Part shown: one piece after another, positions 3,890 to 19,998 of the stretch
How positions within the stretch are numbered: position 1 is the first letter of the stretch
How the letters are laid out: each line of letters starts with the position of its first letter
IMG/VR virus record: IMGVR_UViG_3300044612_003086
Location: 113,892 to 133,891 of that record
Origin: an uncultured virus (IMG/VR IMGVR_UViG_3300044612_003086)
Taxonomy: Duplodnaviria > Heunggongvirae > Uroviricota > Caudoviricetes
DNA length: 20,000 bases
Direction: 5' to 3' (one strand)
Program-made: the position numbers and the translations under genes
The notes under the pieces: model-generated
Databases searched by the model: none
What the model saw: the letters and a program-made list of their open reading frames with translations, nothing else
What the model was told of the DNA's origin: nothing

Positions 3890-3898
3890 TGATACGCC

Positions 3899-7020: not shown

Positions 7021-7312
7021 CCTCTGACACCGTACATGAGATTTTGGTATTAAGAAATTCACCTATTCTTAGAAAACCGCTTCCAGATTCCGTATCAATA
7101 TCGATTTGTACCGTCGTAATAATTGGTGCCTCTAGTTCAAATCTGCTACTTATACTCTTTCCGTTATTGCCGATGACCACATTTTCTCCAGGCACCACGT
7201 GGGTTCCCCTGCTATGGTTGATTGCAATTGAGCCATCTTCGGAAAGAGTTAATCTGCAAACTTCTTCCCCAAATGGTGTATCAACGGAGATATCCCAAGA
7301 CCCCAAAATCAT
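7013..7312 (-). CDS. Hypothetical small beta-rich protein (99 aa)
   Basis: Tiles the operon; starts GSWDISVDTPFG; function not recognised. Confidence 0.7.
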   Translation of the reverse strand: MILGSWDISVDTPFGEEVCRLTLSEDGSIAINHSRGTHVVPGENVVIGNNGKSISSRFELEAPIITTVQIDIDTESGSGFLRIGEFLNTKISCTVSEDE

Positions 7313-7319
7313 GGCATCG

Positions 7320-8592: not shown

Positions 8593-8595
8593 AAT

Positions 8596-9312
8596 TTATA
8601 AAAACTTTTCATTCGGAAATTTACTTCTGAGGTAAGCAAGGTCAAAGTCGAACATCAAAACAAGACGTCTTGATGTACCATCATGTCTTACCGAGTGCTC
8701 AAACGGCGGGCCATCCTTGAAAGCAAGAATCTTGCCTTCTTCCCAACTTTTTGTTTCGTCGCCTACGGTTATTCTACAGTCCTTATCGTTTATTAGGCAC
8801 AGGTGACTTCTCATTAGTTGGTCAGAACCAAAATGCGGATTTACTACCGCCCCAGGATGCATTATGCTGAACATTCCGCCAGAACATTGGTTGCTGTCAG
8901 CGAACTCAGCAACTATCGAGTTAAACGTTTTGAATTGTTTCCTAACGTGCTCTAGGTGTGTTTCTAGATTGGCTTTTGTTTTCCACCTCAGTATTTTTTT
9001 TACCATTTCCGTATTTGCCCACTGCTTGGGGTCACTTGCTGGTGGAGTTCCGGCAACCGCTACGTCCCAGGAGCCTGTATAAAGCTTTCGCCTATCCCCT
9101 TCCGGCAAGTCTGATTGTGGATTTTCGTACCTTGCGTGAGAGAGGGTAACATTTGGGGCAGGCAGAGAAACCTTGTTATCGGAGTATGGGTGTTGAGTGT
9201 TTTCGTAAACGATGTACTCGTCACGTATCTTTTCCCAGTTTTTCTCAATCTGCACACACACGGGCAAGGACCTGATTAATTCATCCCAGAACCTTGGCTG
9301 CAAGTCACTCAT
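8596..9312 (-). CDS. Aspartyl/asparaginyl beta-hydroxylase family protein (AspH/LpxO-like)
   Basis: NWEKIRDE, FSIMHPGAVVNPHFG, RSHLCL, VGDETKSWEEGKILAF.D...EHSV.H.G...RLVLMFD match the Asp_Arg_Hydrox motif series. Confidence 0.88.
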   Translation of the reverse strand: MSDLQPRFWDELIRSLPVCVQIEKNWEKIRDEYIVYENTQHPYSDNKVSLPAPNVTLSHARYENPQSDLPEGDRRKLYTGSWDVAVAGTPPASDPKQWANTEMVKKILRWKTKANLETHLEHVRKQFKTFNSIVAEFADSNQCSGGMFSIMHPGAVVNPHFGSDQLMRSHLCLINDKDCRITVGDETKSWEEGKILAFKDGPPFEHSVRHDGTSRRLVLMFDFDLAYLRSKFPNEKFL

Positions 9313-9348
9313 TTTTTGATACTAACACGTTTCACGTGCTTAAAGATT
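9313..9348 (-). promoter_or_regulatory. Candidate extended -10 promoter (TGTTAGTAT) for a leaderless transcript
   Basis: Minus strand reads ...ACG-TGTTAGTAT-CAAAAA-ATG: TGnTAnnnT lies 6 nt before the ATG at 9312, with no Shine-Dalgarno, in one of the few intergenic gaps. It overlaps a short inverted repeat (CACGT-GAA-ACGTG). Confidence 0.4.
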
Positions 9349-10074
9349 TTAATTTTTAATGAAAACCGTTTGTCCGTATCCGTTGGCCAGGTGGTATGTG
9401 TGCCCGTCGCTGTTTTTAAGAATTTCATGCATGCTTGAATATGGGTGAATATGAAAGTCTTCCCTGTAAAGCTTCGTATTGTGATTGGACATGCCAATCA
9501 GTAGAACACCACCAGGATTCAGTGATTCAACCAAATCTTTAACAAGTTTGTCATTGCCCACAAGAGACCAACCCCAGCAAATGGCCATGTCAAATGTGTT
9601 TTCAGATATTTCATTTGGCTCGACGACGCAGTATTCGTTAAGCTCATTGATGCCCGGGCCAGGTAATTCTAGTTCCCCGGCAATATGCTCCAAAAAGAAC
9701 AATGAGTGATTATTCACAAAACACAAGTCTGTGTCTGGAAATTTTGCTTTATACATACTCCAAAGTAGTATTTCTGCATCGACGAATAACAAGGAATTTG
9801 GCTTCTTTGTCATTAGAACTTGTTCTTGAGCGATGTATTCAGCTTCGATTATCGCTGCCCATTCTGGTTCCATTCCCTTAATGAGTTCATAAATCCAGTA
9901 TGTGTTCAGTCCTGCTACAGCAACATTTCTCTTGTCAAGATTGATTGATGAAAGCCAGCTTGATACCGCGCTTCCTGCATCGCTCATCAACTGAGCAAAA
10001 TCAATATTGTTGCTAAATTGGGTCTTTGATGACTGCTGCGTCACCAGAGCGCTCCTAATTGCAAAATTATCCAT
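9349..10074 (-). CDS. Class I SAM-methyltransferase-like protein (degenerate motif I)
   Basis: C-terminal half has ENTFDMAIC and LVESLNPGGVLLI (motifs II/III); no glycine-rich motif I visible. Confidence 0.55.
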   Translation of the reverse strand: MDNFAIRSALVTQQSSKTQFSNNIDFAQLMSDAGSAVSSWLSSINLDKRNVAVAGLNTYWIYELIKGMEPEWAAIIEAEYIAQEQVLMTKKPNSLLFVDAEILLWSMYKAKFPDTDLCFVNNHSLFFLEHIAGELELPGPGINELNEYCVVEPNEISENTFDMAICWGWSLVGNDKLVKDLVESLNPGGVLLIGMSNHNTKLYREDFHIHPYSSMHEILKNSDGHTYHLANGYGQTVFIKN

Positions 10075-10375
10075 TTTGGATTACCGCCAATACAACTTGT
10101 CTCTGGAACCAGAGATGCCTTGCCCTATTTGTTAGTAGAAAATTTCTTTTACGCGTTAAGTCGTAGTATGGTTTTCCCTGTTGGTTAAATGTCGAACTGC
10201 TCATGTGAAATGACTGTCTCAGACTAAAAAAAATGTCGTCGAACTCGACTTCGGATATTTGATTGAACTCCATACCGGCTATGTACATTATCTTTGCGAG
10301 TTCGCGCTCTATTTCCTGCAAGTGCGAAGCAGCATCGAAGAGAGGCTCTTCACCGTGTTGTCTAGTCTGTTTCAT
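10067..10375 (-). CDS. Hypothetical helical protein (102 aa)
   Basis: Tiles the operon; weak similarity to the small proteins at 10681-11382 (IERELAKIMYIAGM). Confidence 0.7.
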   Translation of the reverse strand: MKQTRQHGEEPLFDAASHLQEIERELAKIMYIAGMEFNQISEVEFDDIFFSLRQSFHMSSSTFNQQGKPYYDLTRKRNFLLTNRARHLWFQRQVVLAVIQNG

Positions 10376-10670
10376 CTGTAAATTCCTCGGTCCAGTCGTC
10401 GTTTATATCAATCGGGTCTTGTCCAAATTGGGACATTGGGTCATTCCCCTGTAGGCGCTCACAAAATAATGCAGCGCCGTCCGGAAGAACGAAAGAAAAA
10501 GTTTTTGGGTTCCAGTGCAAAACATTTTCTGTTCTATCTGGATTGTCCATTGGGTTGGTTATGTCTGGTTCTGATTTTGACTGCTCAGGACAGATGTTGT
10601 ATTGCCCTGTAGCGATGGCAGCGTCCACCAGCGGAACATTCCTTTTGATTGGCGGTAAATTCAGCTCCAC
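10362..10670 (-). CDS. Hypothetical acidic protein (102 aa)
   Basis: GTG start 10 nt after the upstream stop; tiles the operon. Confidence 0.7.
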   Translation of the reverse strand: MELNLPPIKRNVPLVDAAIATGQYNICPEQSKSEPDITNPMDNPDRTENVLHWNPKTFSFVLPDGAALFCERLQGNDPMSQFGQDPIDINDDWTEEFTDETD

Positions 10671-10680
10671 AATGAAACCA

Positions 10681-10896
10681 CTACGAGAGTCGCTGCAGAG
10701 ACTCTATTTGTCTAATCAGATTGTTGAAAGACTTGTATCTTGTTGCGTCTGATTCTGGAGTCTCTGGGTTTTCAAAATTCTCATCAAGTGTTTCTGGATT
10801 GACGCCAAGAGAAAGGGCAAGTACGTATATCGAGTATTCAAGATATTGCTTTGCTTCTTGTCGTGCTTGTTGTTTTTGTTCATCCGAAAGCGCCAT
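10681..10896 (-). CDS. Small helical hypothetical protein (71 aa)
   Basis: Clear AGGAG RBS upstream; LALSLGVNPETL motif. Confidence 0.8.
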   Translation of the reverse strand: MALSDEQKQQARQEAKQYLEYSIYVLALSLGVNPETLDENFENPETPESDATRYKSFNNLIRQIESLQRLS

Positions 10897-10908
10897 GTTG
10901 ATTTTCTC

Positions 10909-11154
10909 CTATTTAAGTGTGTCCATTGTCAGATTCGATGCTTGTCTAAAGTGGCCGACTTGGCGCAATAACTTTTCTTTGCGAGTTGGTCTATCAGAAT
11001 CACGAACATTAAGGTTTTCCATAACTTCATCTTCGGATATCTCAAGAGGGTCTATGGCGCTCAGAAGCAATGTATGAATCTGGGCGTTAATCAGCTGCTG
11101 ATGCAGTCTAAACCCAGCAGCAATCTTTGCCTGTTTGCTAATCCCAAATTGCAT
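10909..11154 (-). CDS. Small helical hypothetical protein (81 aa)
   Basis: Tiles the operon; LLLSAIDPLEI motif. Confidence 0.7.
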   Translation of the reverse strand: MQFGISKQAKIAAGFRLHQQLINAQIHTLLLSAIDPLEISEDEVMENLNVRDSDRPTRKEKLLRQVGHFRQASNLTMDTLK

Positions 11155-11160
11155 TTTTGC

Positions 11161-11382
11161 CTACGAGTTAAGTTCATTCAGCTTGCGCTTAATCAGTTTT
11201 ACTGCATTTATTGACTCATTGAGGATTGGGACCTCGAAATTGTGCTCAGCCTCAAGAATAAATGTGTCTGGGTCTATTCCGTGCCCAATCAGTCTTTCAA
11301 ACAACACCTTTTCGGCGTCCCTAAGGCTGCGCTCAAATATCCCGCGCTTCTCGTTATTTGTCAATTGAGACGAAAATTCCAT
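11161..11382 (-). CDS. Small helical hypothetical protein (73 aa)
   Basis: GGAG 7 nt before ATG 11382 (alternative GTG 11385); LIGHGIDPDTF motif. Confidence 0.75.
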   Translation of the reverse strand: MEFSSQLTNNEKRGIFERSLRDAEKVLFERLIGHGIDPDTFILEAEHNFEVPILNESINAVKLIKRKLNELNS

Positions 11383-11413
11383 CACCTATCTCCGATTGTG
11401 TTGTTTGCTTTGA

Positions 11414-11430
11414 ATCATACCACCATTATA
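11414..11430 (-). promoter_or_regulatory. Candidate internal sigma70-type -10 elements (TATAAT and extended TGGTATGAT)
   Basis: Minus strand reads TATAAT-GG-TGGTATGAT at the start of the ~40-nt gap upstream of the small-protein run; no convincing -35. Confidence 0.35.
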
Positions 11431-12133
11431 CTATGGGCTCCGAAAGTGCTGGCAGCCCAGCAAATGTTGGGCCTATTTGATTTCCGTCCGCGTCAAGACC
11501 TGTCTTAATGCCCTTTGTCCAAGTCCATGGGCGTTCGATATTGTTCTGCGACTTGAGTTGACCATATTTTGACCTTGCCTCCACCAGCTCCTTATCGTCC
11601 CATAGTGTCACTACCTCGAATTCTGCGTCTTTAATGATTTGAGGCGAGTAGATGTTAAAAAAACACAAAGGCGAACCGGCTGGGAAAACTACTTCCTGAT
11701 TTTCTTTTGTTATCTTCCAGTTCATTTGAACTTCGTCAGGCCACCACCACGAAGGAATCGTTGCTGACAGCCCGACAGCGCCGTCTATAAAGTAATTTGG
11801 AGAGCCCGAAATCCAAGTCTCATACCCTGGCTCGGTGTTTATAATCCATCCCATGTGTAGGGAAATGGTTCCTATTATTGATGATGTGGCTTGCTTTCTG
11901 CCGCTTTTAGTAAATTCGCCTGCAAGTATTTCGGGGGGAGTGTTTCCGCCGGACCATTTAATTACAAGGTCCTCCTCCATCTGCACTTCCCATCCCATTA
12001 CATTCGCCACGGAGACTGGCATGCATTGATAAGCGTGTTTTTTATGTGTCTCGTCCATCCAGTCTCTCTTTAATCTTGACTGAACTATCCGAGGTGGATT
12101 TGGGTCTGTTCTTTTTAAAACTATCTTGCTCAT
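11426..12133 (-). CDS. DUF6065-like protein
   Basis: RDWMD...HAYQCMPVSVANVMGW, SGSPNYFIDG...L...I..WW and MNWKIT...VVFPAGSPLC match the DUF6065 pattern as I recall it. Confidence 0.75.
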   Translation of the reverse strand: MSKIVLKRTDPNPPRIVQSRLKRDWMDETHKKHAYQCMPVSVANVMGWEVQMEEDLVIKWSGGNTPPEILAGEFTKSGRKQATSSIIGTISLHMGWIINTEPGYETWISGSPNYFIDGAVGLSATIPSWWWPDEVQMNWKITKENQEVVFPAGSPLCFFNIYSPQIIKDAEFEVVTLWDDKELVEARSKYGQLKSQNNIERPWTWTKGIKTGLDADGNQIGPTFAGLPALSEPIV

Positions 12134-12849
12134 TTCTTTACCGACATATCAATACTTGTTCCAGACGAAACCCCAGCCCCATATGTTGCCTTTGAGCCGT
12201 CAATATTCTCCCCGTAGCCATGTTTGTGAGTTCTGTCGTTGTAGTCAAACATGGTCACTGCCGCATACTTTGTTCCAGAAACAACAGGTCGCGACGCGTG
12301 GGCATACGTAAACGTAGATGGGAACATTACGTTGTCCCCAGCGGCAAACTTCACGTTTAGGTCAAGATATGGGAACCAAAGCTCACCCCCCTCGTAGTCG
12401 TCATTTATGTATATGACTGACGAAACTGTACAGTTATAAGAAAATCCATGGTCTGTGTGAACGTTGAAGTGCTGACCAGGCTTATATCGCACATAATTTA
12501 TGGCTTCACGATAATCCATTTTGATGTTAAATCTTTGCTGATAGTCGTTAAGACATGCCGTTAATATTTCAACGGTATCTTCGTATACTGAGCGAAGTCC
12601 GGAAAATTCTTGTGGCAAGTTTGCTATATGGGCATCTCCCAATTTACAATCAACGCAGTCTCTGTATTCTGGCATTTTTTGTTGGTCGCCAACGAGTGCA
12701 TCCATCCACATATACGGCGCGGTTTCACTGGACCCAATCGCCTCTTCAATTCTCTCCGGTATGTTCAATTCCCGTGGGAGCGCATTGCGATAGACGATTA
12801 TTGCCAATCTCGGGTCTCCAATAAACTCAACCTCGATATTTCTTACCAT
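12130..12849 (-). CDS. Prolyl-4-hydroxylase-like Fe(II)/2OG oxygenase (2OG-FeII_Oxy_3)
   Basis: VRYKPGQHFNVHTD, YINDDYEGGELWFP, FPSTFTYAHAS, GTKY; AGGAG RBS. Confidence 0.9.
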   Translation of the reverse strand: MVRNIEVEFIGDPRLAIIVYRNALPRELNIPERIEEAIGSSETAPYMWMDALVGDQQKMPEYRDCVDCKLGDAHIANLPQEFSGLRSVYEDTVEILTACLNDYQQRFNIKMDYREAINYVRYKPGQHFNVHTDHGFSYNCTVSSVIYINDDYEGGELWFPYLDLNVKFAAGDNVMFPSTFTYAHASRPVVSGTKYAAVTMFDYNDRTHKHGYGENIDGSKATYGAGVSSGTSIDMSVKK

Positions 12850-13381
12850 ATTGGTTGCTCCTTTTTTGTTTATGTTTCATAGAAAACCACATTGGGCATG
12901 CCCACCTATCCCCTCCGTATACATTATCTACATAATGAGCAAATTCAATACCGCCACCATAAATTACAACCCGGCCTGGGGATGGCTTCACGGTATTGCC
13001 CGTATCGGCAAAAACAAGTTCCCCCCCATTGAATTCTTGGTTCAAATACAGAACCGCAGACACATCAAAGTCCTCACACCCAAGCTTTGGTGAGCCATCC
13101 AAATTCTGCCTGTCTGCGTGCAGTGTTGGGACATGAAGTCCAGATTTGCTGACAAAAATTCCGGGCATTCTATGCTCAAGTTCAATGTCATATTTTTTCT
13201 CTGCGGCTGCCATGACAACCCATGATGCAAATATCAATGACTCGGCGGCTTCAAAATCTTCTGTCAGTAGTCTGTCAATTCCAATACTTTCGCCAATTTT
13301 TACTGCCGCCGACAATATTTTGGAAATAGTCGTATCTTCAAAAAGCGAATCTATGATATGTACTTTGTCTACTCTATTCAT
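12827..13381 (-). CDS. Prolyl-hydroxylase-like Fe(II)/2OG oxygenase
   Basis: LHAD, SAVLYLNQEFNGGELVF, HYV, GDRW. ATG 13381 (8-nt overlap) preferred over 13429. Confidence 0.88.
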   Translation of the reverse strand: MNRVDKVHIIDSLFEDTTISKILSAAVKIGESIGIDRLLTEDFEAAESLIFASWVVMAAAEKKYDIELEHRMPGIFVSKSGLHVPTLHADRQNLDGSPKLGCEDFDVSAVLYLNQEFNGGELVFADTGNTVKPSPGRVVIYGGGIEFAHYVDNVYGGDRWACPMWFSMKHKQKRSNQYGKKYRG

Positions 13382-14009
13382 CCACAACAGTATAGAACGA
13401 TGGGGTCGTATATCTCTCCCCAGATTCAACCATGCTTACCCCGTGTAAGTACCCAACATCACCAGGATGTATCACTGCCAAGCCGGGTTTTGGTCTAACG
13501 GTAATCCCGTGCTGTGGGTAATACAAATCGCCACCCTCAAAGTCGTCATTGTAATAGAACAATGAATTGATGTCGTAATCCGTGAAGGCGTTTGGTCTTC
13601 CGTCATTTAGTTGCTTATCGGCATGGGGGCGCTGCTCTATGCCTGCCCGCCATTTCATTATCACCGGAGGGCGCACTGAAACAGAAACCTGAAAAAGCTC
13701 TTCGATGAGGTTCTTCATTTTGTAGATGTATTTATCAACAATTTCATAAACCTCCGAGTTCAGCTCCTTTAAAATTTCAGAACTGCACTGCCTGTCGTTC
13801 CAGTATTCTGCGTTATACAAACATGTTCCATCTTCCGCATAAACGCTTTCGGCTGTGTTGTTCCATTTATTTATTGTTGGGCAAAATTTCTGAACTAAGA
13901 GCAAGTCTTCTAGTTCGATAAAATTTTCAATTATGTGGATGTTCTCTGGTCCGCTGCCAAAATGCCCGGGTTTTATCTTCCAGGGTGAATCGATATCAAT
14001 CATTTCCAT
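13374..14009 (-). CDS. Prolyl-hydroxylase-like Fe(II)/2OG oxygenase
   Basis: PHAD, YYNDDFEGGDLYYP, YLHGV, GERYT. Start at 14009 or 14003. Confidence 0.9.
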   Translation of the reverse strand: MEMIDIDSPWKIKPGHFGSGPENIHIIENFIELEDLLLVQKFCPTINKWNNTAESVYAEDGTCLYNAEYWNDRQCSSEILKELNSEVYEIVDKYIYKMKNLIEELFQVSVSVRPPVIMKWRAGIEQRPHADKQLNDGRPNAFTDYDINSLFYYNDDFEGGDLYYPQHGITVRPKPGLAVIHPGDVGYLHGVSMVESGERYTTPSFYTVVDE

Positions 14010-14784
14010 GTGATTTCCTTTGGGACGTTATATGTTCATACAACATAACATCCAATTTGCTTCTTTCAAGTATTTCCTTTTTTTGTGACGGGCTCGGTTT
14101 TATTCCAGCTCGGACCGATGAGTTCATTTTTTCTAAACCCAACCCTACAAATTCAACATTGAATTTATCCTTAAATTGATAAGTCAAATATTTTTCTACG
14201 GCCATTCGCTCGTTCATTTCAAAAATTGTAATGTCTTTAATTCTGTCTATTAGTTCTTTTTCTCCAGTAGGTAAATCGGACTCGACAAACCATGCACCAT
14301 TAGGCTGAATACTAACCCCTGGTGATTCATCCCCAACATCTAAGACTGCATTGATTTCAACCATCCTGCACGTAAGCATCTTGGTTTGCAAATTTCCGTC
14401 AGATGAAAACAATTTACATCCAAAAATTGTTTCGTATTTTCCGTCTAAGAACTTGTCAAGAATTTCGTTTGTAAATTCCCTTCGGGACGACATGGCCCTG
14501 TATGCAGCAATGCTGACAAAATGGTCTACCGGCTCCCTTATAACGGAGAACGTCTCCAGGCTGCTGTCGTTGTGTAAAATTGGATTGATTGCAAAATGAC
14601 CACTAATTGTGGGCCATTCGCTCATTGTTATGTGATTATATGAAAATTCAAAAATCCCAGGGGTTTGGTTTTCGTATTTATCAAGACCCTTTTTGTATCT
14701 ATCCAGTTCAAACGATTTATGTATTGCGTAAAGTATTCCGGTCCCAGATGTGCGCGGTATATGCAGATGATAAAGATTACCCAT
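13996..14784 (-). CDS. Sulfotransferase family protein (Sulfotransfer_2-like)
   Basis: 5'-PSB-like HLHIPRTSGT at the N-terminus, SGHF, 3'-PB-like IREPVDHFVS and C-terminal LDVMLYE. Confidence 0.8.
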   Translation of the reverse strand: MGNLYHLHIPRTSGTGILYAIHKSFELDRYKKGLDKYENQTPGIFEFSYNHITMSEWPTISGHFAINPILHNDSSLETFSVIREPVDHFVSIAAYRAMSSRREFTNEILDKFLDGKYETIFGCKLFSSDGNLQTKMLTCRMVEINAVLDVGDESPGVSIQPNGAWFVESDLPTGEKELIDRIKDITIFEMNERMAVEKYLTYQFKDKFNVEFVGLGLEKMNSSVRAGIKPSPSQKKEILERSKLDVMLYEHITSQRKSHGND

Positions 14785-15361
14785 TTTGGGCCATCTCTAT
14801 TAATTTCCTGTGTTTTTCTGGAACCCAGAAGTGGGGAGATGTATATCTAACTCCTTCTATCACTTGCCTTACGCCATGGAGGTAATAACTGCTGGATGGA
14901 AAAAATATCAAAGAACCCTCTTTTGGTTTTAGTTCAAGTCCGTGTTGCGGAAAATATATTTCCCCACCTGTGTAATTCTGATTTATATAAATTACGGAAC
15001 CGTAATCAACTATGTATGTTCCGTTTGGCGTGCCGTCTAGGTCTTCGCCATCCGCGTGAAGACCTTGACTCTCCCCAGAGTCCCATCTTCGTATGCCCGG
15101 TCTTGCTGTCTCTAGGATTCTCCCAAATTTAAACTCAATCATTTTCTTTACGTCATCAACGTATGATTGCATTATTTCATAGAGTTCGGGGTTATCCTTC
15201 TGCATTTTTTTGTATGTGGATATCTTGTCATTACCGCCCTTTGACCATGACTCCCACTCATTGATTGAATAGCAATAGCGATATGCAAGTTCGACGTGTT
15301 CGGGCGTCATAAAATTTTCTACTACAACTATGTTTGATTTGTCGGCAGCTGCAGCTCTCAT
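14777..15361 (-). CDS. Prolyl-hydroxylase-like Fe(II)/2OG oxygenase
   Basis: LHAD, YINQNYTGGEIYFPQH, YLHGV, GVRYTSP; close paralog of 13374..14009. Confidence 0.9.
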   Translation of the reverse strand: MRAAAADKSNIVVVENFMTPEHVELAYRYCYSINEWESWSKGGNDKISTYKKMQKDNPELYEIMQSYVDDVKKMIEFKFGRILETARPGIRRWDSGESQGLHADGEDLDGTPNGTYIVDYGSVIYINQNYTGGEIYFPQHGLELKPKEGSLIFFPSSSYYLHGVRQVIEGVRYTSPHFWVPEKHRKLIEMAQNG

Positions 15362-15371
15362 GGCTACAACC

Positions 15372-16307
15372 TTATCTATTTTGCAAAAACTCGTCTATAT
15401 CAGCGCTTATGAGCTGCAACGAAAAATCTATGCCTTTTCTCTGGGTGATATTTGGCCAAGCGGTACCAGTTTTTGAGTACGAGATGTGGCCAGGTTCTTC
15501 TACGTGTTCAGTTTTTGGCTTGTAGTAACGACGTCCATTTTCATCGTATCTTTCTTCAAGCCATGGAAACATTTCTCCGTCTGGATTTCTCTCCCCAAGC
15601 AAAAATCCATTTGCATAACGCTTGATTCTTGTTCCAGTTCTATCGATAAGGAACTTTTCAAAATTGCCTCGGAGAGGATAAAACCCACGTTTTCCTGTAT
15701 CAACTTTTGCGTAACCATCTGGTGTTAGCTCATTCGAGAAAGACCAAGGTATTTCCTCATAATGGTATGGCACTCCGTTTGGTTGGAGGTCTGCTTTGTA
15801 TGCTCCAGTTAAGTACCACCACAGGTCGTGCTGTTCTTGCATTTTAATTTTTCCTGGAACAAAATTCTCATCGTAGGTATGTTTATCAAATCTTCCATTT
15901 GTTAATTCAGAAAATTGATACGTAACACCAAAATTCTCTTTCGCGTACTGTTCAGACAATTGGCCCGGCGTGATATCTAGTTCATTTTTATCCAAGTACG
16001 CCTGGAGACCTTCTTGAAATTCGGGATATCCGTGGCAAACAAAATCATCAACAACAACCGCAAGAATATCAAAATCATCTTCGTTTTTGTATTTTTGATT
16101 TAATTCTTCGATTACGGAGTGTTGTGGAATATTCCCACATCCAGCCGACACATTAAAAATAAGAGTAACTTTTCCCTTGCGGTTTTTTAGTATGTCTGAT
16201 GATTTTCCATCAGCTGACGACAAATTAATGTCATATATGGAAAACGGAAGAACCGTGTCACTCCAATCATTTTCCGCAATTGGCGCTTCTTGTATTTCGC
16301 AGTCCAT
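15372..16307 (-). CDS. Glutathione peroxidase-fold protein with insertions
   Basis: SIYDINLSSADG, KGKVTLIFNVSAGCGN (peroxidatic Cys position kept), GNFEKFLID. The FPCNQF motif is replaced by VVVDDFVCHG. ATG 16307 overlaps the upstream TGA. Confidence 0.8.
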   Translation of the reverse strand: MDCEIQEAPIAENDWSDTVLPFSIYDINLSSADGKSSDILKNRKGKVTLIFNVSAGCGNIPQHSVIEELNQKYKNEDDFDILAVVVDDFVCHGYPEFQEGLQAYLDKNELDITPGQLSEQYAKENFGVTYQFSELTNGRFDKHTYDENFVPGKIKMQEQHDLWWYLTGAYKADLQPNGVPYHYEEIPWSFSNELTPDGYAKVDTGKRGFYPLRGNFEKFLIDRTGTRIKRYANGFLLGERNPDGEMFPWLEERYDENGRRYYKPKTEHVEEPGHISYSKTGTAWPNITQRKGIDFSLQLISADIDEFLQNR

Positions 16308-17551
16308 CACTTAAACCCTGGTGGGAAAAACGGCGGGAAGAAAGGTGGGAAAAATGGCGGGAAGAAAGGTGGGAAGAACGGTGGAAAGAAAGGCGGGAAA
16401 AATGGCGGGAAAAATGGAGGAAAGTATGGAGGGAAATATGGAGGGAAATATGGAGGAGCTACCGGGCTTACTGAACCAGACGAAGCAGAGGTCTGGAATC
16501 CGTAGCTATTGGTTGCTCTTACGGTGAATGTATAGGCAGTACCGTTGGTGAGACCTGTAACGGTAATAGGAGAAGTTCCAGAGGCCTGAACGTTTCCTGG
16601 CGATGAAATTGCAGTGAATGTTGTGGAACCAGTTCCCGCAGCTCCTGCAGTAAATGAGACAGTCACTTGAGCGTTTCCTGCAGCACCAGATACCCCAGTT
16701 GGTGCACCCGGCCTGTTTCCTGCCGTCACCGAGTTTGACGCAGCAGAAGTTGCTGAACCATACACAGAAGATGCGGTAACGGTAAATGTATATGCTTGAC
16801 CTGCGGTTAAACCCGTAGCCCTAATTGGGCTTGTTCCGGTAAAGGTCAATGCCCCAGGACTCGTTGTTACTGTGTATGTGGGAGAACCAGTTCCAGTCGC
16901 GCCTGGTGTGAATGGAACATCAATCGCCCTATCTACGTTTTGAACAATTACAGCGGTGCCTATTGCTGGGGCAGTTGGTTTGTTCCCGGCAACTACTGAG
17001 TTTGATGCAGCAGAAGTTGCTGCACCGAACAAGTTTGATGCGGTAACAGTAAATGTGTAAGAGGTTCCAGCAGTTAGGCCAGTCACTCTAATAGGACTGG
17101 AGCCAGTTGCGGTAATTCCTTCCGGCGAAGATGTTGCCGTAAACGTTGTCGCTCCAGTACCAGCTGCACCAGCCGTATAAGCAACGTCTATAGCTCTATC
17201 TGTGTTTGCAACGATTGATGCAGTTCCGATTGTAGGAGCACCTGGGTTTTGGCCGATTGCAACAGATGATGTGGAAACAGAATCTGATGGAACGCCATAA
17301 TTTGTTGTTGCAACAAGAGAGAATGTATAGCTCGTACCAGCAGTAAGACCAGTTACTGTTATTGGCGAACTTGAGGCGGAGGCGCTAATGCTTCCCGGGT
17401 TTGATGTAGCGGTATAGGTTATTGCATCTTTACCTATATACTCAGACGGCGTAAAAGATATTGAAGCCACAGTGCCCACGCCGGTATTCGTCGCTGTGAC
17501 GTTAGTTGGCGTAGTTGGCTTTTTCCCACCACTGTCTTTTATTGCTTCCAT
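16307..17551 (-). CDS. Fibronectin type III-like repeat protein (4 domains) with a C-terminal (PPYF)3(PPFF)8PPGFK tail; putative virion surface protein
   Basis: Four ~88-aa units starting P..PT/PA and containing SPI.VTGLT.G..YTF.V.A; no signal peptide; directly follows the fibre-like gene. Confidence 0.85.
   Translation of the reverse strand: MEAIKDSGGKKPTTPTNVTATNTGVGTVASISFTPSEYIGKDAITYTATSNPGSISASASSSPITVTGLTAGTSYTFSLVATTNYGVPSDSVSTSSVAIGQNPGAPTIGTASIVANTDRAIDVAYTAGAAGTGATTFTATSSPEGITATGSSPIRVTGLTAGTSYTFTVTASNLFGAATSAASNSVVAGNKPTAPAIGTAVIVQNVDRAIDVPFTPGATGTGSPTYTVTTSPGALTFTGTSPIRATGLTAGQAYTFTVTASSVYGSATSAASNSVTAGNRPGAPTGVSGAAGNAQVTVSFTAGAAGTGSTTFTAISSPGNVQASGTSPITVTGLTNGTAYTFTVRATNSYGFQTSASSGSVSPVAPPYFPPYFPPYFPPFFPPFFPPFFPPFFPPFFPPFFPPFFPPFFPPGFK
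16313..16456 (-). repeat. 12 x 12-nt coding tandem repeat encoding PP(Y/F/G)F
   Basis: Read directly: 3 PPYF, 8 PPFF and 1 PPGF. Third codon positions vary between units while the amino acids stay conserved. Confidence 0.95.
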
Positions 17552-17554: not shown

Positions 17555-18331
17555 TTATGCCGAAAGGTCTCCGATGAGCACCCAGGTGTCAGCTGCTCTT
17601 TTTATCAGCGTAGCACCTGACCACTGCGCTCGCATTTTGCGTCCAGGTGTTGCGTTAATGGTCACCCCTGAACCCTGCGTAACAGTGCACTGACCTGCCC
17701 CTGTTTGAATAACCGTGATATGCGTTCCAGTTGCAAAAAACACCGATGAATCAGGGGGGACTGTCAAGGTATTAGCTGTGGCAACGTTCATCTCGATAAT
17801 CTTATTTCTATCCGAAAGAACAAGCGTGTAGCTAGCCGCCTGAGCGTTTGTCAATGGTTCTGCTAACTTATTCCTTCCTATACCAGCGTCGGATGAAATG
17901 TCACCATCGACTATTGTGCCGTCTTCAATCATGTACGAAGTAATGACCGCTTGGTCGGTTAGAACAACCGCTGTTCCAGCAATTTTTTCTGGGTTGATTT
18001 CTGCGCCGTTGGCAATATGAGTATCGCTAATAGCGTCATCAATAATCGTCAGTGAACCTGTGTGGAACAATTGCACGTCTCCGGATATGGCGGTTGAAGT
18101 AGCAACACCGGATGAGTTATACATAACAATCTTGCCAGGGTCACTATCTACAAGTCTGTTGAGAGGGACGGAATCCTCGGTTAGAGACGAACCAGCAACA
18201 GCGCCCGAAGAAAACATTGCTGATGGGATTGTTACAAGAACCCAACCAGAACCGTTGAAGGTCCAGGTCTTACCCGAACTTACGTGAAGGTCGCCTGATT
18301 GTGCACCTGATGGAAAGTCAATTGCTGGCAT
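17555..18331 (-). CDS. Tail-fibre-like virion protein
   Basis: N-terminal MPAIDFPS...GKTWTFNGSGW motif common in phage fibre proteins, short shaft-like repeats (DDAISDTHI, DGTIVDGDI) and a C-terminal domain paralogous to <1..392. ATG 18331 preferred over 18355. Confidence 0.75.
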   Translation of the reverse strand: MPAIDFPSGAQSGDLHVSSGKTWTFNGSGWVLVTIPSAMFSSGAVAGSSLTEDSVPLNRLVDSDPGKIVMYNSSGVATSTAISGDVQLFHTGSLTIIDDAISDTHIANGAEINPEKIAGTAVVLTDQAVITSYMIEDGTIVDGDISSDAGIGRNKLAEPLTNAQAASYTLVLSDRNKIIEMNVATANTLTVPPDSSVFFATGTHITVIQTGAGQCTVTQGSGVTINATPGRKMRAQWSGATLIKRAADTWVLIGDLSA

Positions 18332-18333
18332 GT

Positions 18334-19998
18334 TTAGGCCTGTGCTTCCGTCCAAGATAGACGGGCAAACACGGTTGCTGATGCCGAACCGATGTTTCTA
18401 GCAACAATATGCAGCGTGTCTGGTCCGTCTGGATATATACCTGTTGTTGTTGATGTCGTACCGCCACCAAGAACAGAGTTGCCAAGGTCACGAACGTCCT
18501 CAAGGCTAATCTGAACACCACCAATACCACCAGTGAAGAAACCGCCAGTAACTTCACCACCGCTCACTTGAGCATCAACTGCGGAATAATCTGCAATTTG
18601 AGCCAAGCTCGAGGTAACTGTGGTCGGTTTTGACCATGTTCTTGAAACGGTCGGAACTCCGTTGAGAATCGCCGTGATTAGAAGGTTTGACGTACTTGAA
18701 GTTGTCGTTACGTCCAGGTTGCGGAGTACGAGTTGCATTCTGTTCACCAGCTCACGCTCACCGAAAGCAGCCGATGTTCCATTATCTGCCGACGGTGACA
18801 CACGTATAGCCAATAGTGCTTTTGTTGCGCCAGACGCAATCGCGATACCGGTTGTCTGGCCATATGTAAACACGAGCGATTTGTCGTCATCGAATCTTCC
18901 GTCCATAATCGCTGAGGTTCCCCAGTGAGAAATGGAAGGAGCATAAGTTGGGAATGCCAACTCAACGCCCACTGGATTTGATGCTGAGTATGTGAATGCA
19001 AGTGCCGCATTTGTACCCATCGGAATTGCGCTTACTGTTGGGTTCGCGCCAGTTACTGCCGCGCTCAGTTTGATATTGTTTCCAGAAATTTGCTGAATAA
19101 ACGTACCATCAGGCACGTCTGTTCCAGTAACTCTCTGACCAACTTGTAATCCGGAGTTGGAGGCCACTGTTCCGTCGTTGGCTCCAGCCGCAATTGTTAT
19201 GGCAAGGGAAGCGTTTCCTGTTTGCTGTCTTGTTAGACCAGTGAACGTTGTAGCAGTCTTTCCTGTGTAGTTAATAAATTCATAACCAGTTGCCGTATTG
19301 AATACACACAATGTGCCGGCACTTGGAAATCCAGTCGTACTGCCAACATTCATGGTCGTTGTTTCAGAATCGGATAATGTTCCGGTTAGCTGAGTGTGTG
19401 GTGGCTGACTAAGACTTTCGTATCTTGCTGGAAGGTTTCCAGAGCGCATATACGCTTCAGCGTTTGTATTGTTATTAACTATTTTATGGGCGTACGTTAC
19501 TTTTCCGTCTTTTGCCCGCATTCCCCAGCGAATAAAACCAGCACCATACCACGAATAGTCAATGTAGAACATCTGCATTCTTGAAAGGTCAACGTTGTAG
19601 CCGGAAGCTCCCGTTCCGTCGAACTTGTCTAGATTCCATTCAGCTTGTGGATACTTTGTGTCCACTGTTTTGGAAACTGAAACCATGGTTGAAGTAGAAC
19701 CACGCCATGCTGGGCTAATTGTCATCGATGTATTGCTTGCAATATCTGTAACCCTGTATGACATGCCTCGAGCAACGATGTAATCTCCGATTTCTAGCTG
19801 TCCTGCATATCTCGTTGGGAACGCTGCGTTTGTTTGAGTCACGGTGCATGAGCCATTTGTGAATGATGACTTACCAGAAATCTGGAATGTTGATGAACGT
19901 TTTACGGCCCACAACGTTTGCCCGTCAAATTCAAAGAACACTCCGTTTTGGTCGTCAAACAAACCAATTCTGTTTACGTTTCCATACCAACCTGCAAC
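18334..19998 (-). CDS. Large virion structural protein, C-terminal part (5' truncated by window edge)
   Basis: Frame open to the window end (VAGWYGNVNRIGLFDDQNG...). Motifs FDDQNGVFFEFDG, QMFYIDYSWYGAG, YMRSGNLPARYE and HWGTSAIMDG resemble structural proteins of large aquatic phages; Thr/Ser/Gly-rich. Confidence 0.7.
   Translation of the reverse strand, partial: VAGWYGNVNRIGLFDDQNGVFFEFDGQTLWAVKRSSTFQISGKSSFTNGSCTVTQTNAAFPTRYAGQLEIGDYIVARGMSYRVTDIASNTSMTISPAWRGSTSTMVSVSKTVDTKYPQAEWNLDKFDGTGASGYNVDLSRMQMFYIDYSWYGAGFIRWGMRAKDGKVTYAHKIVNNNTNAEAYMRSGNLPARYESLSQPPHTQLTGTLSDSETTTMNVGSTTGFPSAGTLCVFNTATGYEFINYTGKTATTFTGLTRQQTGNASLAITIAAGANDGTVASNSGLQVGQRVTGTDVPDGTFIQQISGNNIKLSAAVTGANPTVSAIPMGTNAALAFTYSASNPVGVELAFPTYAPSISHWGTSAIMDGRFDDDKSLVFTYGQTTGIAIASGATKALLAIRVSPSADNGTSAAFGERELVNRMQLVLRNLDVTTTSSTSNLLITAILNGVPTVSRTWSKPTTVTSSLAQIADYSAVDAQVSGGEVTGGFFTGGIGGVQISLEDVRDLGNSVLGGGTTSTTTGIYPDGPDTLHIVARNIGSASATVFARLSWTEAQA

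What the first reader, a model, noticed from the sequence alone, without database searches (positions are those of the whole stretch)
11426..17551. Candidate phage-encoded protein-decoration system: (PPFF)n-tailed FN3 protein coupled to a prolyl-hydroxylase/sulfotransferase/peroxidase operon
Seen: a 4xFN3 protein ends in 12 PP(F/Y/G)F units (24 Pro). Directly downstream, mostly overlapping, come a GPx-fold protein, a P4H-like oxygenase, a sulfotransferase-like protein, three more P4H-like oxygenases and DUF6065. Known: P4H-type 2OG oxygenases hydroxylate Pro in repetitive Pro-rich peptides (collagen, plant extensins, algal virus P4H), and sulfotransferases act on hydroxyl groups. Inference: the layout resembles a RiPP cluster, but the repetitive core is fused to a virion protein. 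The tail could be multiply hydroxylated (Pro, possibly Phe/Tyr) and then sulfated, giving a modified adhesive or receptor-binding tip. This would also offer a substrate for phage 2OG-oxygenase arrays, which are usually read as metabolic auxiliary genes. I do not know of a described system like this.
Basis: partly seen in the sequence, partly recalled or inferred. Interest (0 to 1): 0.92.

Follow-up and report, generated by a model that had tools for sequence, protein, structure and literature searches.

The report
Phage Pro-Phe tail beside hydroxylase battery
An uncultured lake phage ends a tail-fibre-region protein with a 48-residue proline-phenylalanine polymer and encodes collagen-hydroxylase-type enzymes, a sulfotransferase and other helpers right behind it, so the polymer is a testable but unproven candidate substrate for long-unexplained phage oxygenase arrays.

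Summary
ORF 16307-17551(-) has four FN3 units and ends in 12 PP(Y/F/G)F units plus Lys. Gaps of -56 to +10 nt then lead to a GPx-like gene, four P4H-type 2OG oxygenases with intact HxD..H..R/K, a sulfotransferase-fold gene and DUF6065 (dUTPase-like fold).

- Of 60 (PPFF)n genes in viral contigs with at least 5 kb downstream, 44 have such oxygenases downstream and 40 have DUF6065. None of 38 has an oxygenase within 4 genes upstream.
- Of 43 DUF6065 loci close to the window's, 40 have a (PPxF)n gene upstream, and 2 more have a degenerate tail.
- Among control (PT)6 loci, 2 of 79 have an oxygenase and 0 have DUF6065.

No chemistry is shown. The loci are related by descent. A co-fold gave only weak support (0.45, best control 0.22).

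Phage Syn9 has a similar array without any Pro-Phe repeat. Iyer et al. 2010 described such arrays and proposed hydroxylation followed by sulfation of co-encoded fibre-like proteins in bacteria.

My verdict is a new variant of a known kind and a strong, testable candidate. This scan found the same kind of module four times before on other DNA.

In passing, 20 small (PPxF)n genes in other contigs need a +1 shift at a conserved CGG codon.

The parts
18334..19998 (-). V: virion structural protein, cut by the contig end. In cultured cyanomyoviruses its homologue follows the baseplate wedge genes.
   Evidence: phrog_5838 E 2.4e-190. 40-49% aa identity to Synechococcus phages S-H9-1, S-RSM4 and S-PM2. 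Context in Sf-CH11.
17555..18355 (-). T: minor-tail / fibre-like protein. A homologue lies directly upstream of the (PPxF)n gene in most loci.
   Evidence: phrog_18179, phrog_8780 and phrog_16053. C-terminal 160 aa are 38-40% identical to Gordonia phage minor tail proteins. T is directly upstream of R in 23 of 38 loci with at least 5 kb upstream.
16307..17551 (-). R: 414-aa protein with an N-terminal GGKKPT motif, four FN3 units and a C-terminal (PPxF)12-K tail.
   Evidence: Near-identical copy in L026. Homologues carry from 4 to more than 30 units.
16310..16456 (-). Coding DNA of the tail: 3 PPYF, 8 PPFF, 1 PPGF, then Lys.
   Evidence: 54 of 64 distinct C-terminal tails in all loci end in FK.
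15372..16310 (-). G: 312-aa protein with a GPx/thioredoxin-fold N-terminus. Cys is present in NVSAGCG. The likely start is the ATG at 16307, overlapping R's stop (TGATG).
   Evidence: PF00255 28.4 bits against cut-off 27, residues 25-91; Redoxin E 0.019. Start codons. Sequence.
14777..15361 (-). O1: 2OG-Fe(II) oxygenase with H102-x-D104, H162 and R172.
   Evidence: PF13640 33.8 bits. PDB matches: PKHD hydroxylase 3dkq E 4e-9, P3H1 E 5e-3, P4H about 0.06. Motif.
13996..14784 (-). S: sulfotransferase-fold protein with a PAPS 5'-PSB-like loop LHIPRTSGTG and a vREPv..S motif.
   Evidence: No Pfam hit. Atlas PF03567 clusters score 0.97 with 195 shared features. Profile A2 against PDB hits HS6ST 5t03 at E 1.1e-6. 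In Foldseek all rows shown (ranks 1-50) are sulfotransferases, but the best E is only 6e-3.
13374..14009 (-). O2: 2OG-Fe(II) oxygenase with H129-x-D131, H189 and R199.
   Evidence: PF13640 22.8 bits, below cut-off. phrog_61 E 2.9e-15. Motif.
12827..13429 (-). O3: 2OG-Fe(II) oxygenase with H104-x-D106, H165 and R175. An ATG at codon 17 is an alternative start.
   Evidence: PF13640 38 bits..
12130..12849 (-). O4: the core oxygenase, with H131-x-D133, H184 and K194. It overlaps DUF6065 by 4 nt. This is the only oxygenase type kept in the minimal T-R-O-D loci.
   Evidence: PF13640 41.5 bits. Invariant H131, D133, H184 and K194 in 30 homologues. Best PDB match is B. anthracis P4H at E 1e-6. Minimal loci L202 and L203.
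11426..12133 (-). D: DUF6065, with a dUTPase-like beta fold and a conserved N-terminal R..WM..T...HAY.C.P motif.
   Evidence: PF19541 147.9 bits. Alignment A1 invariants. Model pLDDT 87.6. Foldseek dUTPases at E 1.6e-5. VIA Z 10.5, rmsd 3.5, 116 aligned.
3059..11385 (-). Rest of the co-directional block.
- Small acidic proteins.
- Methyltransferase-like gene, 9349-10074.
- Asp/Asn beta-hydroxylase-type gene, 8596-9312.
- Two more oxygenases, 7921-8592 and 7320-7934.
- Second GPx-like gene, 6406-7062.
- Three PF13640 oxygenases, 5576-6409, 4675-5661 and 3899-4675.
- NAD-binding-like gene, 3059-3889.
   Evidence: Atlas lead for the methyltransferase, 0.92 with TM 0.55. All 24 junctions from V to the last gene have gaps of at most 40 nt. 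The same genes (labels e, c, b, a, m, o) recur behind D in related loci.
3..3037 (+). Convergent second cassette: the C-terminus of a T-like protein (3-392), a 366-aa Cys-rich protein (394-1494), a 110-aa ORF, and a 374-aa PF13640 oxygenase (1913-3037).
   Evidence: phrog_21510 and phrog_18179 for 3-392.

Best explanation
The window is the end of a 134-kb contig of an uncultured freshwater T4-like phage. One co-directional, tightly packed block runs in this order:
1. a virion structural gene (V);
2. a minor-tail/fibre-like gene (T);
3. R, a four-FN3 protein whose last 49 residues are (PPxF)12-K;
4. a battery of protein-tailoring-type enzymes.

I read R as a fibre-region accessory protein. I read its Pro-Phe tail as the substrate of the collagen-hydroxylase-type 2OG oxygenases encoded behind it.

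The proposed steps are all inferred.
- The oxygenases use Fe(II), 2OG and O2 to hydroxylate the tail. The first target would be Pro C-4/C-3, as P4H-type enzymes do on polyproline-II peptides. The beta-carbons of Phe/Tyr may also be hit, which would explain why several non-orthologous paralogues are kept.
- In this sub-lineage the sulfotransferase then esterifies some hydroxyls (Hyp or Tyr).
- The GPx-like thiol peroxidase copes with peroxide from uncoupled turnover.
- DUF6065 always sits beside the core oxygenase O4. It acts as a helper of unknown chemistry, either presenting the substrate or acting on the conserved ...xFK C-terminus.

The result would be a very hydrophobic polymer turned into a hydrophilic, stiff, possibly adhesive rod at the fibre.

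What is shown: the sequence features, the enzyme family and fold assignments, intact catalytic residues, and a strong, directional, specific gene linkage across deep divergence. What is inferred: that R is in the virion, that the enzymes act on R, and every chemical step.
For: (1) Forward test.
- Of 60 R genes with at least 5 kb downstream, 44 have an oxygenase downstream on the same strand. It lies within 4 genes in 37 and is the next gene in 18. 40 have DUF6065.
- Of 38 with at least 5 kb upstream, 0 have an oxygenase within 4 genes upstream and 2 have one anywhere upstream.

(2) Reverse test. Of 43 DUF6065 loci with at least 5 kb upstream, 40 have a (PPxF)n segment 1.2-6.2 kb upstream on the same strand. 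These are the 80 loci nearest the window's D. Two of the 3 misses (L202, L203) carry a degenerate tail...PPSFGPSFPPPFGPSFGPSFGPAFK, followed by only O4-type + D.

(3) Specificity.
- (PT)6 control loci: 2 of 79 have an oxygenase and 0 of 79 have D. (PPFF)3 loci: 57-62 of 79 by query oxygenase, and 48 of 79 for D.
- In 596 Gb of prokaryote genomes there are only 22 hits. The 6 loci with long arrays (L218 and L226 overlap on one contig) carry the same phage cassette: 4 have G and O genes behind R (3 also D), and 2 only an opposite-strand oxygenase. The 10 loci with short in-frame PPFF runs have no O or D.

(4) Depth of conservation. The 47 D proteins have a median pairwise identity of 37.5% and form 2 clusters at 40%. 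N-terminal domains of R differ (FN3, small, Cys-rich), yet the order T-R-O..D is kept.

(5) Enzymes look active and of the protein-hydroxylase type. HxD..H..R/K is intact in O1-O4. The O4 profile best matches B. anthracis P4H (1e-6), LH3 (1.4e-4) and PBCV-1 P4H (5.5e-3).

(6) Operon-like packing with structural genes. Gaps are at most 40 nt over 25 genes. All 7 PF13640 matches of the 134-kb contig lie in the window.

(7) The tail is under peptide-level selection. 54 of 64 C-terminal tails end in FK.

(8) Tails at the C-terminus are linked more tightly than internal repeats. By my count from the rows, 31 of 35 C-terminal tails have oxygenases, against 10 of 20 internal repeats.

(9) Co-fold of the O4 family, tail residues 345-414 and Fe. 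ipSAE was 0.45 (runs 0.44, 0.45, 0.45) against a best control of 0.22, and the tool's verdict was 'weak support'. In its calibration 116 of 157 solved complexes and 2 of 215 mismatches reached the mark, but only 18 of those 157 did so at 0.60 or under. The runs share at least 13% of contacts, and the partner pLDDT is at least 43.
Against: - No chemistry of any kind is shown. Everything rests on gene context, and the loci are related by descent, so the counts are not independent events.
- Syn9 has a 10-dioxygenase array with a distant DUF6065 homologue (gp43; A1 profile E 1.6e-6 among 26 proteins) right behind its tail-fibre genes. No Pro/aromatic repeat occurs in the 45 kb I read. Such arrays therefore have other substrates, at least there.
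- 16 of 60 R genes with at least 5 kb downstream have no oxygenase downstream. These are mainly large proteins in which the repeat is an internal linker. Of 5 such contigs, 1 has DUF6065 and 3 have PF13640 anywhere. In the one with DUF6065, the array sits behind a second R gene.
- Up to 11 dioxygenase-type genes here is far more than a 4-residue unit seems to need.
- DUF6065's dUTPase-like fold hints at nucleotides.
- Repeat count and oxygenase count correlate only weakly (rho 0.31, p 0.019, n 56, not corrected for phylogeny).
- R has no PHROG match and no virion proteomics.
Confidence: 0.5

Rival explanations
1. Conserved synteny only. The oxygenase/DUF6065 array is a secondary-metabolite or host-metabolism cassette, as in the published readings (halogenated/hydroxylated small molecules, 2OG/N-stress, DNA repair). 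It merely sits at the end of the fibre module, and R is an ordinary fibre accessory whose tail stays unmodified.
For: - Iyer et al. 2010 read the Syn9 array this way, and Sullivan et al. 2010 read cyanophage oxygenases as 2OG/DNA-repair genes.
- Syn9 has the array without a Pro-Phe repeat.
- Gene order in phage structural modules can be conserved without direct coupling.
- 16 of 60 R genes lack downstream oxygenases.
Against: - The linkage is directional and nearly reciprocal within the window's clade, 40-42 of 43 loci.
- It survives to about 25-28% identity between D proteins.
- It shrinks together in the minimal T-R-O-D loci, which have a short degenerate tail.
- The enzymes are packed into the late structural block with gaps of at most 40 nt.
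- Their nearest solved relatives are collagen prolyl/lysyl hydroxylases.
Confidence: 0.25
2. The enzymes do tailor virion proteins, but not (or not mainly) the PPxF tail. The targets would be T, the Cys-rich fibre proteins (for example 394-1494, and the C-terminal domains of other R types), or a host surface structure.
For: - An Asp/Asn beta-hydroxylase-type gene (PF05118, 86.3 bits) lies in the block, and Cys-rich domains occur in neighbouring fibre proteins.
- The second convergent cassette pairs a Cys-rich protein lacking a repeat with an oxygenase.
- The number and diversity of oxygenases suggest several substrates.
Against: The repeat itself tracks O/D presence best, not T or the Cys-rich domains. 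C-terminal tails are linked to oxygenases in 31 of 35 cases (my count), and the (PT)6 control is negative.
Confidence: 0.15
3. The array acts on nucleotides or DNA (base hypermodification), with DUF6065 as a dUTPase/dCTP-deaminase-like enzyme.
For: DUF6065 has a dUTPase-like fold. The top 14 VIA rows have Z 8.5-10.5; 13 are dUTPases and one is the dUTPase-related HCMV tegument protein pp71. Foldseek gives E 1.6e-5.
Against: - Sequence identity to dUTPases is 8-20%.
- The invariant residues are R, W, M, T, H, A, Y, C, P, N and G. This is not the Asp-rich dUTPase motif set as I recall it.
- The oxygenases are PF13640/P4H-type, not TET/JBP or AlkB.
- There is no nucleotide-metabolism neighbour in the block.
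Confidence: 0.05

Closest known systems
Tandem dioxygenase array of Synechococcus phage Syn9, gp41-gp54 (Iyer, Abhiman, de Souza, Aravind 2010, PMC2938197; passages read)
   Same: - Many non-orthologous classical 2OG oxygenases in tandem.
[quoted passage not shown] Syn9 gp43 matches my DUF6065 profile at E 1.6e-6.
- Placed directly behind tail-fibre genes on the same strand.
   Different: - Syn9 has tryptophan halogenases and a JmjC-type member, and no Pro-Phe repeat protein in the 45 kb read.
- The authors proposed secondary-metabolite synthesis and named no protein substrate.
- The window adds a sulfotransferase, GPx-like genes and a methyltransferase-like gene, and has the (PPxF)n protein at the head of the array.
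Chlorovirus PBCV-1 prolyl 4-hydroxylase (PDB 5c5t) and viral Pro-rich repeats. That (PAPK)n-type peptides are its substrates is recalled (Eriksson et al. 1999), not read here.
   Same: A virus-encoded P4H-type enzyme with virus-encoded proline-rich repeats as likely substrate. The window's O4 family matches 5c5t at E 5.5e-3.
   Different: - A single enzyme in a eukaryotic virus, with repeats that are hydrophilic and not adjacent to it.
- Here there is a battery of enzymes in a bacteriophage, a Pro-Phe polymer, and strict adjacency.
Bacterial operons of beta-hydroxylase / phytanoyl-CoA-hydroxylase-type oxygenases with sulfotransferases and tail-collar or collagen-like proteins (prediction in Iyer et al. 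2010)
   Same: The same logic: a co-encoded fibre-like or repeat protein is hydroxylated and the hydroxyl then sulfated.
   Different: - These are cellular operons with different oxygenase families and Gly-rich/collagen-like or tail-collar substrates. They too remain a prediction.
- PAPS synthetase is part of some of them. None was seen in the window.
Hydroxyproline-rich structural polymers: plant extensins, and mussel foot protein 1 with Hyp, diHyp and DOPA (recalled, not from any call)
   Same: Short Pro/aromatic-rich tandem units that are made functional by dense hydroxylation.
   Different: No homology, a eukaryotic secretory pathway, and different repeat units.
RiPP biosynthetic clusters
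   Same: A ribosomal precursor gene followed by tailoring enzymes.
   Different: No leader peptide, recognition element, protease or exporter was seen. The 'core' is fused to a 365-residue folded protein and is a polymer.

Membership tests
P4H-type 2OG-Fe(II) oxygenases (Pfam PF13640) | Match to the family model above its curated cut-off | tested here: met
   O1 33.8, O3 38 and O4 41.5 bits against cut-off 27. O2 scores only 22.8 bits, but phrog_61 gives E 2.9e-15.
P4H-type 2OG-Fe(II) oxygenases (Pfam PF13640) | Fe(II) facial triad HxD...H and a basic residue about 10 after the second His that binds 2OG | tested here: met
   Present in O1-O4. H131, D133, H184 and K194 are invariant in 30 O4 homologues.
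P4H-type 2OG-Fe(II) oxygenases (Pfam PF13640) | Peptidyl-proline is the substrate | not testable with these tools
   The evidence is indirect only. The nearest solved relatives are B. anthracis P4H and LH3, and the co-fold with the tail gave weak support, 0.45 against 0.22.
PAPS-dependent sulfotransferases (Sulfotransfer_2-like) | Match to a family model | tested here: inconclusive
   No Pfam hit even at E 10. A profile of 15 homologues hits HS6ST 5t03 at E 1.1e-6. The Atlas's nearest clusters carry PF03567 in 31-39% of members, score 0.97.
PAPS-dependent sulfotransferases (Sulfotransfer_2-like) | 5'-phosphosulfate-binding loop (P-K/R-T-G/S-G-T) and a 3'-phosphate motif (R-x-P..S) | tested here: met
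   L7 H8 I9 P10 T12 G14 and R83 P85 S91 are invariant in A2. They align to IVFLHIQKTGGT and MLRDPVSRYLS of HS6ST. The motif names are recalled.
PAPS-dependent sulfotransferases (Sulfotransfer_2-like) | Sulfotransferase fold | tested here: inconclusive
   Model pLDDT 76.4. All Foldseek rows shown (ranks 1-50) are sulfotransferases, but the best E is 5.8e-3 and TM is 0.3-0.49.
Glutathione peroxidase (PF00255) | Full-length match and a catalytic Cys/Sec in the NVAS.CG-type motif | tested here: inconclusive
   28.4 bits against cut-off 27, covering only profile positions 1-65 of 108. NVSAGCG with Cys is present (the motif is recalled). The remaining 220 residues have no match.
DUF6065 (PF19541) | Match to the family model | tested here: met
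   147.9 bits against cut-off 26.6, profile positions 5-195 of 236.
dUTPase | dUTPase fold | tested here: met
   VIA Z 10.5, rmsd 3.5, 116 aligned, against M. tuberculosis dUTPase. Foldseek E 1.6e-5.
dUTPase | Conserved dUTPase catalytic motifs | tested here: inconclusive
   No sequence match to any dUTPase in PDB at E 10. The family invariants are R23 W25 M26 T29 H33 A34 Y35 C37 P39 N44 G47 N113 G221. I did not align them motif by motif to dUTPases.
RiPP biosynthetic cluster | Short precursor with leader and core, a recognition element, and a protease or exporter | tested here: not met
   The repeat is fused to a 365-residue four-FN3 protein. No protease, transporter or RRE-type family was found among the 29 window proteins.
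Syn9-type phage tandem dioxygenase array | Several non-orthologous 2OG oxygenases in tandem, with a dUTPase-fold Cys protein, behind fibre genes | tested here: met
   Window. Syn9.

The most novel reading that the evidence does not exclude
(PPxF)n is a ribosomally made Pro-Phe polymer that exists only as the dedicated substrate of a phage-borne tailoring battery. P4H-type oxygenases hydroxylate it exhaustively at several positions. In this lineage a sulfotransferase and perhaps a methyltransferase decorate it further. DUF6065, a dUTPase-fold protein with a conserved His/Cys, would be a new kind of peptide-processing or substrate-presenting partner that recognises the conserved xFK C-terminus. 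The product would be an extensin- or mussel-glue-like adhesive tip on the tail fibre. That would give the long-unexplained 2OG oxygenase arrays of aquatic phages a virion-maturation role in place of a metabolic one.
Probability: 0.3. Interest if true: 0.88.

Novelty: new variant of a known kind. Interest (0 to 1): 0.72.

Why it matters
Phage 2OG-Fe(II) oxygenase arrays have been known since about 2007-2010. They are annotated as auxiliary metabolic or DNA-repair genes, and no substrate is known.

This module names a concrete substrate that can be synthesised: a short (PPFF)n peptide. It also names a minimal enzyme set, O4-type oxygenase plus DUF6065. The question therefore becomes directly testable by co-expression and mass spectrometry.

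If the reading is true, it would:
- move these genes from 'host metabolism' to 'virion maturation';
- add dense hydroxylation (and sulfation) to the known repertoire of phage structural-protein modifications;
- describe a new Pro-Phe fibrous polymer;
- give DUF6065 a function.

My searches found no paper that holds 'DUF6065', none that holds both 'PPFF' and 'phage', and none describing a phage hydroxylase acting on a tail fibre.

Tried and rejected
- Megablast of 11000-18400 and tblastn of R and of DUF6065 against 50,697 cultured phage records gave no match. R is low-complexity and BLAST's filter is on, so the blank for R means little.
- phmmer of S and of D against PDB gave nothing useful. 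Profiles and folds were needed.
- The search of 1.84 billion representatives used residues 330-414 of R. It was swamped by the FN3 part, returning giant FN3 proteins. It says nothing about how common the tail is. The query was poorly chosen and the single job is spent.
- Sequencing runs: 20 lake or freshwater DNA runs hold the stretch, and no RNA holder is listed. This gives no evidence on expression.
- Laying the contigs of 4 runs showed near-identical copies and a pile-up on the repeat, but nothing on repeat-number variation that I could trust, because contigs break at the repeat.
- Promoter and terminator scan: counts do not exceed shuffles (25 against 32.9, and 17 against 15.1). No convincing terminator lies between R and the enzymes. 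This is uninformative.
- Repeat number against oxygenase number gives only rho 0.31.
- No R-oxygenase or R-DUF6065 fusion protein was found in any fetched locus.
- psbA is absent from the 134-kb contig, so I do not call the phage a cyanophage. The host is unknown.
- Stop-codon readthrough or recoding as the explanation for the split small genes is rejected, because the stop before the repeat frame is TAG, TAA or TGA in different loci.
- One paper search failed on term syntax and was repeated with other terms.

Full report
WHAT IS THERE. The window is the last 20 kb of a 133,891-bp viral contig, estimated 89% complete. Its DNA occurs in lake-water metagenomes.

From 19998 down to 3059, 25 genes lie on the minus strand, and no junction gap exceeds 40 nt. 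The block opens with a virion structural protein, V (phrog_5838, E 2.4e-190). V is 40-49% identical to proteins of Synechococcus myoviruses. In cultured relatives that protein follows the baseplate wedge genes. The contig has no psbA, so I leave the host open.

Next comes T (17555-18355). Its C-terminal domain is shared with minor tail and fibre proteins.

Then comes R (16307-17551). It has four FN3 units, seen as the motif GLT.G..YTF at residues 68, 158, 247 and 333. Its C-terminus is PPYF x3, PPFF x8, PPGF, K.

THE REPEAT IS REAL AND SELECTED. A two-unit DNA pattern occurs 7 times in the window, all in the tail, and 0 times in 200 shuffles. The 12-nt DNA period is only 80% self-identical. 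Among the 66 unit pairs, 134 codon differences are synonymous and 35 are not. Nucleotide differences number 157 at third positions against 46 at first and second positions. The peptide is what is conserved, not the DNA.

THE ENZYMES. Seven genes follow R, with junction gaps of -4, +10, -8, -14, -56, -23 and -4 nt.
- G (15372-16310) has a marginal GPx match: 28.4 bits against cut-off 27, N-terminal 65 profile positions only. Cys is present in NVSAGCG.
- O1-O4 are 2OG-Fe(II) oxygenases. Three pass the PF13640 cut-off. O2 does not (22.8 bits) but matches phrog_61. All four keep HxD...H plus R/K ten residues later.
- In 30 homologues of O4, residues H131, D133, H184 and K194 are invariant. Their profile best matches Bacillus anthracis prolyl 4-hydroxylase (E about 1e-6). 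Next come collagen lysyl hydroxylase LH3 (1.4e-4), PiuC-type hydroxylases, and PBCV-1 P4H (5.5e-3).
- S (13996-14784) has no Pfam hit. A 15-sequence profile hits heparan sulfate 6-O-sulfotransferase at E 1.1e-6, and the PAPS-binding loop and the R.P..S motif align. The Atlas's nearest clusters carry PF03567 (0.97). All Foldseek rows shown (ranks 1-50) for its model are sulfotransferases, though the best E is only 6e-3.
- D (11426-12133) is DUF6065 at 147.9 bits. Its model (pLDDT 87.6) has a dUTPase-like fold: Foldseek E 1.6e-5, VIA Z 10.5, rmsd 3.5, 116 aligned. Its invariant residues are R23 W25 M26 T29 H33 A34 Y35 C37 P39 N44 G47 N113 G221. That does not look like a dUTPase active site to me, but I did not align the motifs one by one.

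Further downstream lie a methyltransferase-like gene (lead only), an Asp/Asn beta-hydroxylase-type gene, five more oxygenases and a second GPx-like gene. All 7 PF13640 matches of the whole 134-kb contig lie inside the window.

Forward direction. Every one I translated holds the match in frame as PPFF. In the 79 loci of at least 3 kb, phmmer with the window's proteins (E at most 1e-3) found 267 oxygenase ORFs among 1203 ORFs. It found DUF6065 in 48 loci.
- Of 60 R genes with at least 5 kb downstream, 44 have an oxygenase downstream on the same strand. It lies within four genes in 37 and is the next gene in 18. 40 have DUF6065.
- Of 38 R genes with at least 5 kb upstream, none has an oxygenase within four genes upstream and 2 have one anywhere upstream. 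23 have T directly upstream.

Reverse direction. A DUF6065 alignment found 585 viral stretches, of which the 80 nearest to the window's D were kept. Of the 43 with at least 5 kb upstream, 40 have a (PPxF)n segment 1.2-6.2 kb upstream on the same strand. Two of the three misses (L202, L203) carry an FN3/Cys-rich protein ending ...PPSFGPSFPPPFGPSFGPSFGPAFK, followed by just one O4-type oxygenase and D. This is a minimal T-R-O-D form, in which a short degenerate tail goes with a minimal enzyme set.

Controls.
- (PT)6-bearing viral loci: 2 of 79 have an oxygenase and 0 of 79 have D.
- In 596 Gb of prokaryote genomes the PPFF pattern has only 22 hits. The 6 loci with long arrays (L218 and L226 overlap on one contig) carry the same phage cassette, presumably phage contigs binned into MAGs. 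Four of them have G and O genes behind R (3 also D), and the other two only an opposite-strand oxygenase. The 10 loci with short in-frame PPFF runs have no O or D, and 6 loci hold no in-frame PPFF ORF.

Depth. The 47 D proteins beside R genes have a median pairwise identity of 37.5% and fall into 2 clusters at 40%. R's non-repeat part varies: four FN3 units, one or two FN3 units, about 60-90-residue small forms, or Cys-rich C-terminal domains.

WHAT WEAKENS IT.
- The loci are relatives. The counts show that one old module is conserved, not many independent events.
- 16 of 60 R genes have no oxygenase downstream. These are mostly large proteins of 700-1400 aa in which the repeat is an internal linker.
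- Of five such contigs, one has DUF6065 and three have PF13640 anywhere. In that one contig the array sits 5.5 kb behind a second R gene. All five are fragments, 13-54% complete.
- Syn9 carries a ten-dioxygenase array right behind its tail-fibre genes. Its gp43 is a distant DUF6065 homologue (E 1.6e-6 among 26 proteins). I found no Pro/aromatic repeat in 45 kb of Syn9, where Gly-rich proteins sit instead. The array type is therefore older and broader than the repeat.
- The co-fold of the O4 family with tail residues 345-414 and Fe gave ipSAE 0.45 (0.44, 0.45, 0.45) against a best control of 0.22. The tool calls this 'weak support'. In its calibration 116 of 157 solved complexes and 2 of 215 mismatches reached the mark, but only 18 of the 157 did so at 0.60 or less. 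The runs share at least 13% of contacts, the partner pLDDT is at least 43, and the counts hold only roughly because I used my own alignment and a ligand.

MOST LIKELY MECHANISM. I put about 50% on the reading that at least the core oxygenase hydroxylates the tail. The remainder (sulfation by S, peroxide control by G, a helper role for D) is inference from family membership and adjacency.

A structural aside, which is pure inference: in a polyproline-II helix of three residues per turn, a four-residue unit returns to the same face every 12 residues. Several relatives do show a 12-residue super-period, PPYF-PPFF-PPFF. TRF reports a 36-nt period in the window.

COMPARISON WITH WHAT IS KNOWN.
- Sullivan et al. 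2010 (passages read) list 2OG oxygenases in 14 of 16 cyanomyoviruses and discuss 2OG/N-stress and DNA repair.
- Iyer et al. [quoted passage not shown]
- For bacterial operons with sulfotransferases, Iyer et al. propose hydroxylation then sulfation of co-encoded tail-collar or collagen-like proteins.
- PBCV-1 P4H with viral Pro-rich repeats is the closest viral enzyme-substrate pair (recalled; its structure 5c5t appears).

New relative to these are the (PPxF)n polymer, its near-obligate position at the head of the array, the conserved xFK end (54 of 64 C-terminal tails), and the minimal R-O-D form. I found no paper with 'DUF6065', none with 'PPFF' plus 'phage', and none on phage hydroxylases acting on tail fibres. 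Subscription journals and supplements were not searched.

This scan noted the same kind of module four times before on other genomes, with the same reading. I re-tested the linkage, the dUTPase fold and the Syn9 comparison myself. This window adds the GPx-like genes and the sulfotransferase, and a T4-like 134-kb setting.

SIDE FINDING. Many small (PPxF)n genes in other contigs have no ATG, GTG or TTG before the repeat. Of 34 distinct small segments examined, 20 are split.
- A 15-60-residue ORF (M..GK..RK.AKPTVAA-R...) starts at the stop of T and overlaps the repeat frame, which is offset by +1.
- All 20 have a CGG codon in the overlap, and the +1 reading there is GGA (16), GGT (3) or GGG (1).
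- Unsplit homologues read ...AKPSIAA-G-TA..ANT.ITSAGF... in one frame, with Gly exactly at that place.
- The codon before CGG is GCA (9), AAA (4), GGT (4) or another (3). The stop before the repeat frame is TAG, TAA or TGA, which excludes recoding of one stop codon.

This looks like a programmed +1 frameshift at a hungry CGG codon. The window's own R gene is unsplit.

VERDICT. I class it as a new variant of a known kind, with interest 0.72.

Noticed in passing
Other loci, for example L171 1170-1511, L155 6902-7255, L179 5557-5934, L002, L051, L054 and L063. Not in the window.: 20 of 34 distinct small (PPxF)n genes are split over two frames. All 20 have a zero-frame CGG codon at the switch, and the +1 reading there is GGN. 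Unsplit homologues have Gly exactly at that place. This is a candidate programmed +1 frameshift at XXX_CGG (XXX = GCA 9, AAA 4, GGT 4, others 3), without the usual UUU slippery codon.
   Followed up: partly
window 6406-7062 (-): A second, stronger GPx-family gene (PF00255, 91.3 bits). It reads NVVSKTG where the first gene has NVSAGCG, so Thr stands at the place of the peroxidatic Cys (motif recalled). It is possibly inactive or uses another Cys.
   Followed up: no
window 3-3037 (+): A convergent mini-cassette mirrors the main one. It has a T-like C-terminus (3-392), a 366-aa Cys-rich protein with a single FPPF (394-1494), a 110-aa ORF, and a 374-aa PF13640 oxygenase. The whole oxygenase field therefore lies between two fibre-like gene sets.
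   Followed up: partly
window 16277-16507: In four lake metagenome runs the summed contig depth on the repeat is 25-1479, against about 7-20 in the flanks. 6-15 contigs per run show the same base change at position 16385 within it, and assemblies break there. Many co-occurring phages share this repeat DNA.
   Followed up: partly
L227 (Syn9) 12932-17949 and 21055-21843: Syn9 gp43 is a distant DUF6065 homologue. The genes between Syn9's fibres and its dioxygenase array (gp36, gp38, gp39) are extremely Gly-rich repeat proteins. They might play the part that the Pro-Phe tail plays here.
   Followed up: partly
L005, L030, L049, L068, L082, L104 (tails): Many tails show a 12-residue super-period, PPYF-PPFF-PPFF. 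In a polyproline-II helix this would put all the Tyr residues on one face. The window's DNA also shows a 36-nt period.
   Followed up: no
L012, L024, L048, L065/L066, L229: Some contigs carry two or more T-R cassettes in tandem and a single oxygenase/DUF6065 array behind the last one.
   Followed up: partly
window 9349-10074 (-): A conserved 241-aa gene of the block ('m', found behind D in many related loci) looks like a class I SAM methyltransferase. The evidence is Atlas features only (0.92, structure TM about 0.55). There is no Pfam hit.
   Followed up: partly
P0005, P0007 (homologues of R): Close homologues of R have very short tails. P0005 ends in PPYFPPYFPPFFPPGFK, 4 units. P0007 has 2 units followed by a Cys-rich domain. 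Unit number therefore ranges from 2 to more than 30 within the family.
   Followed up: no
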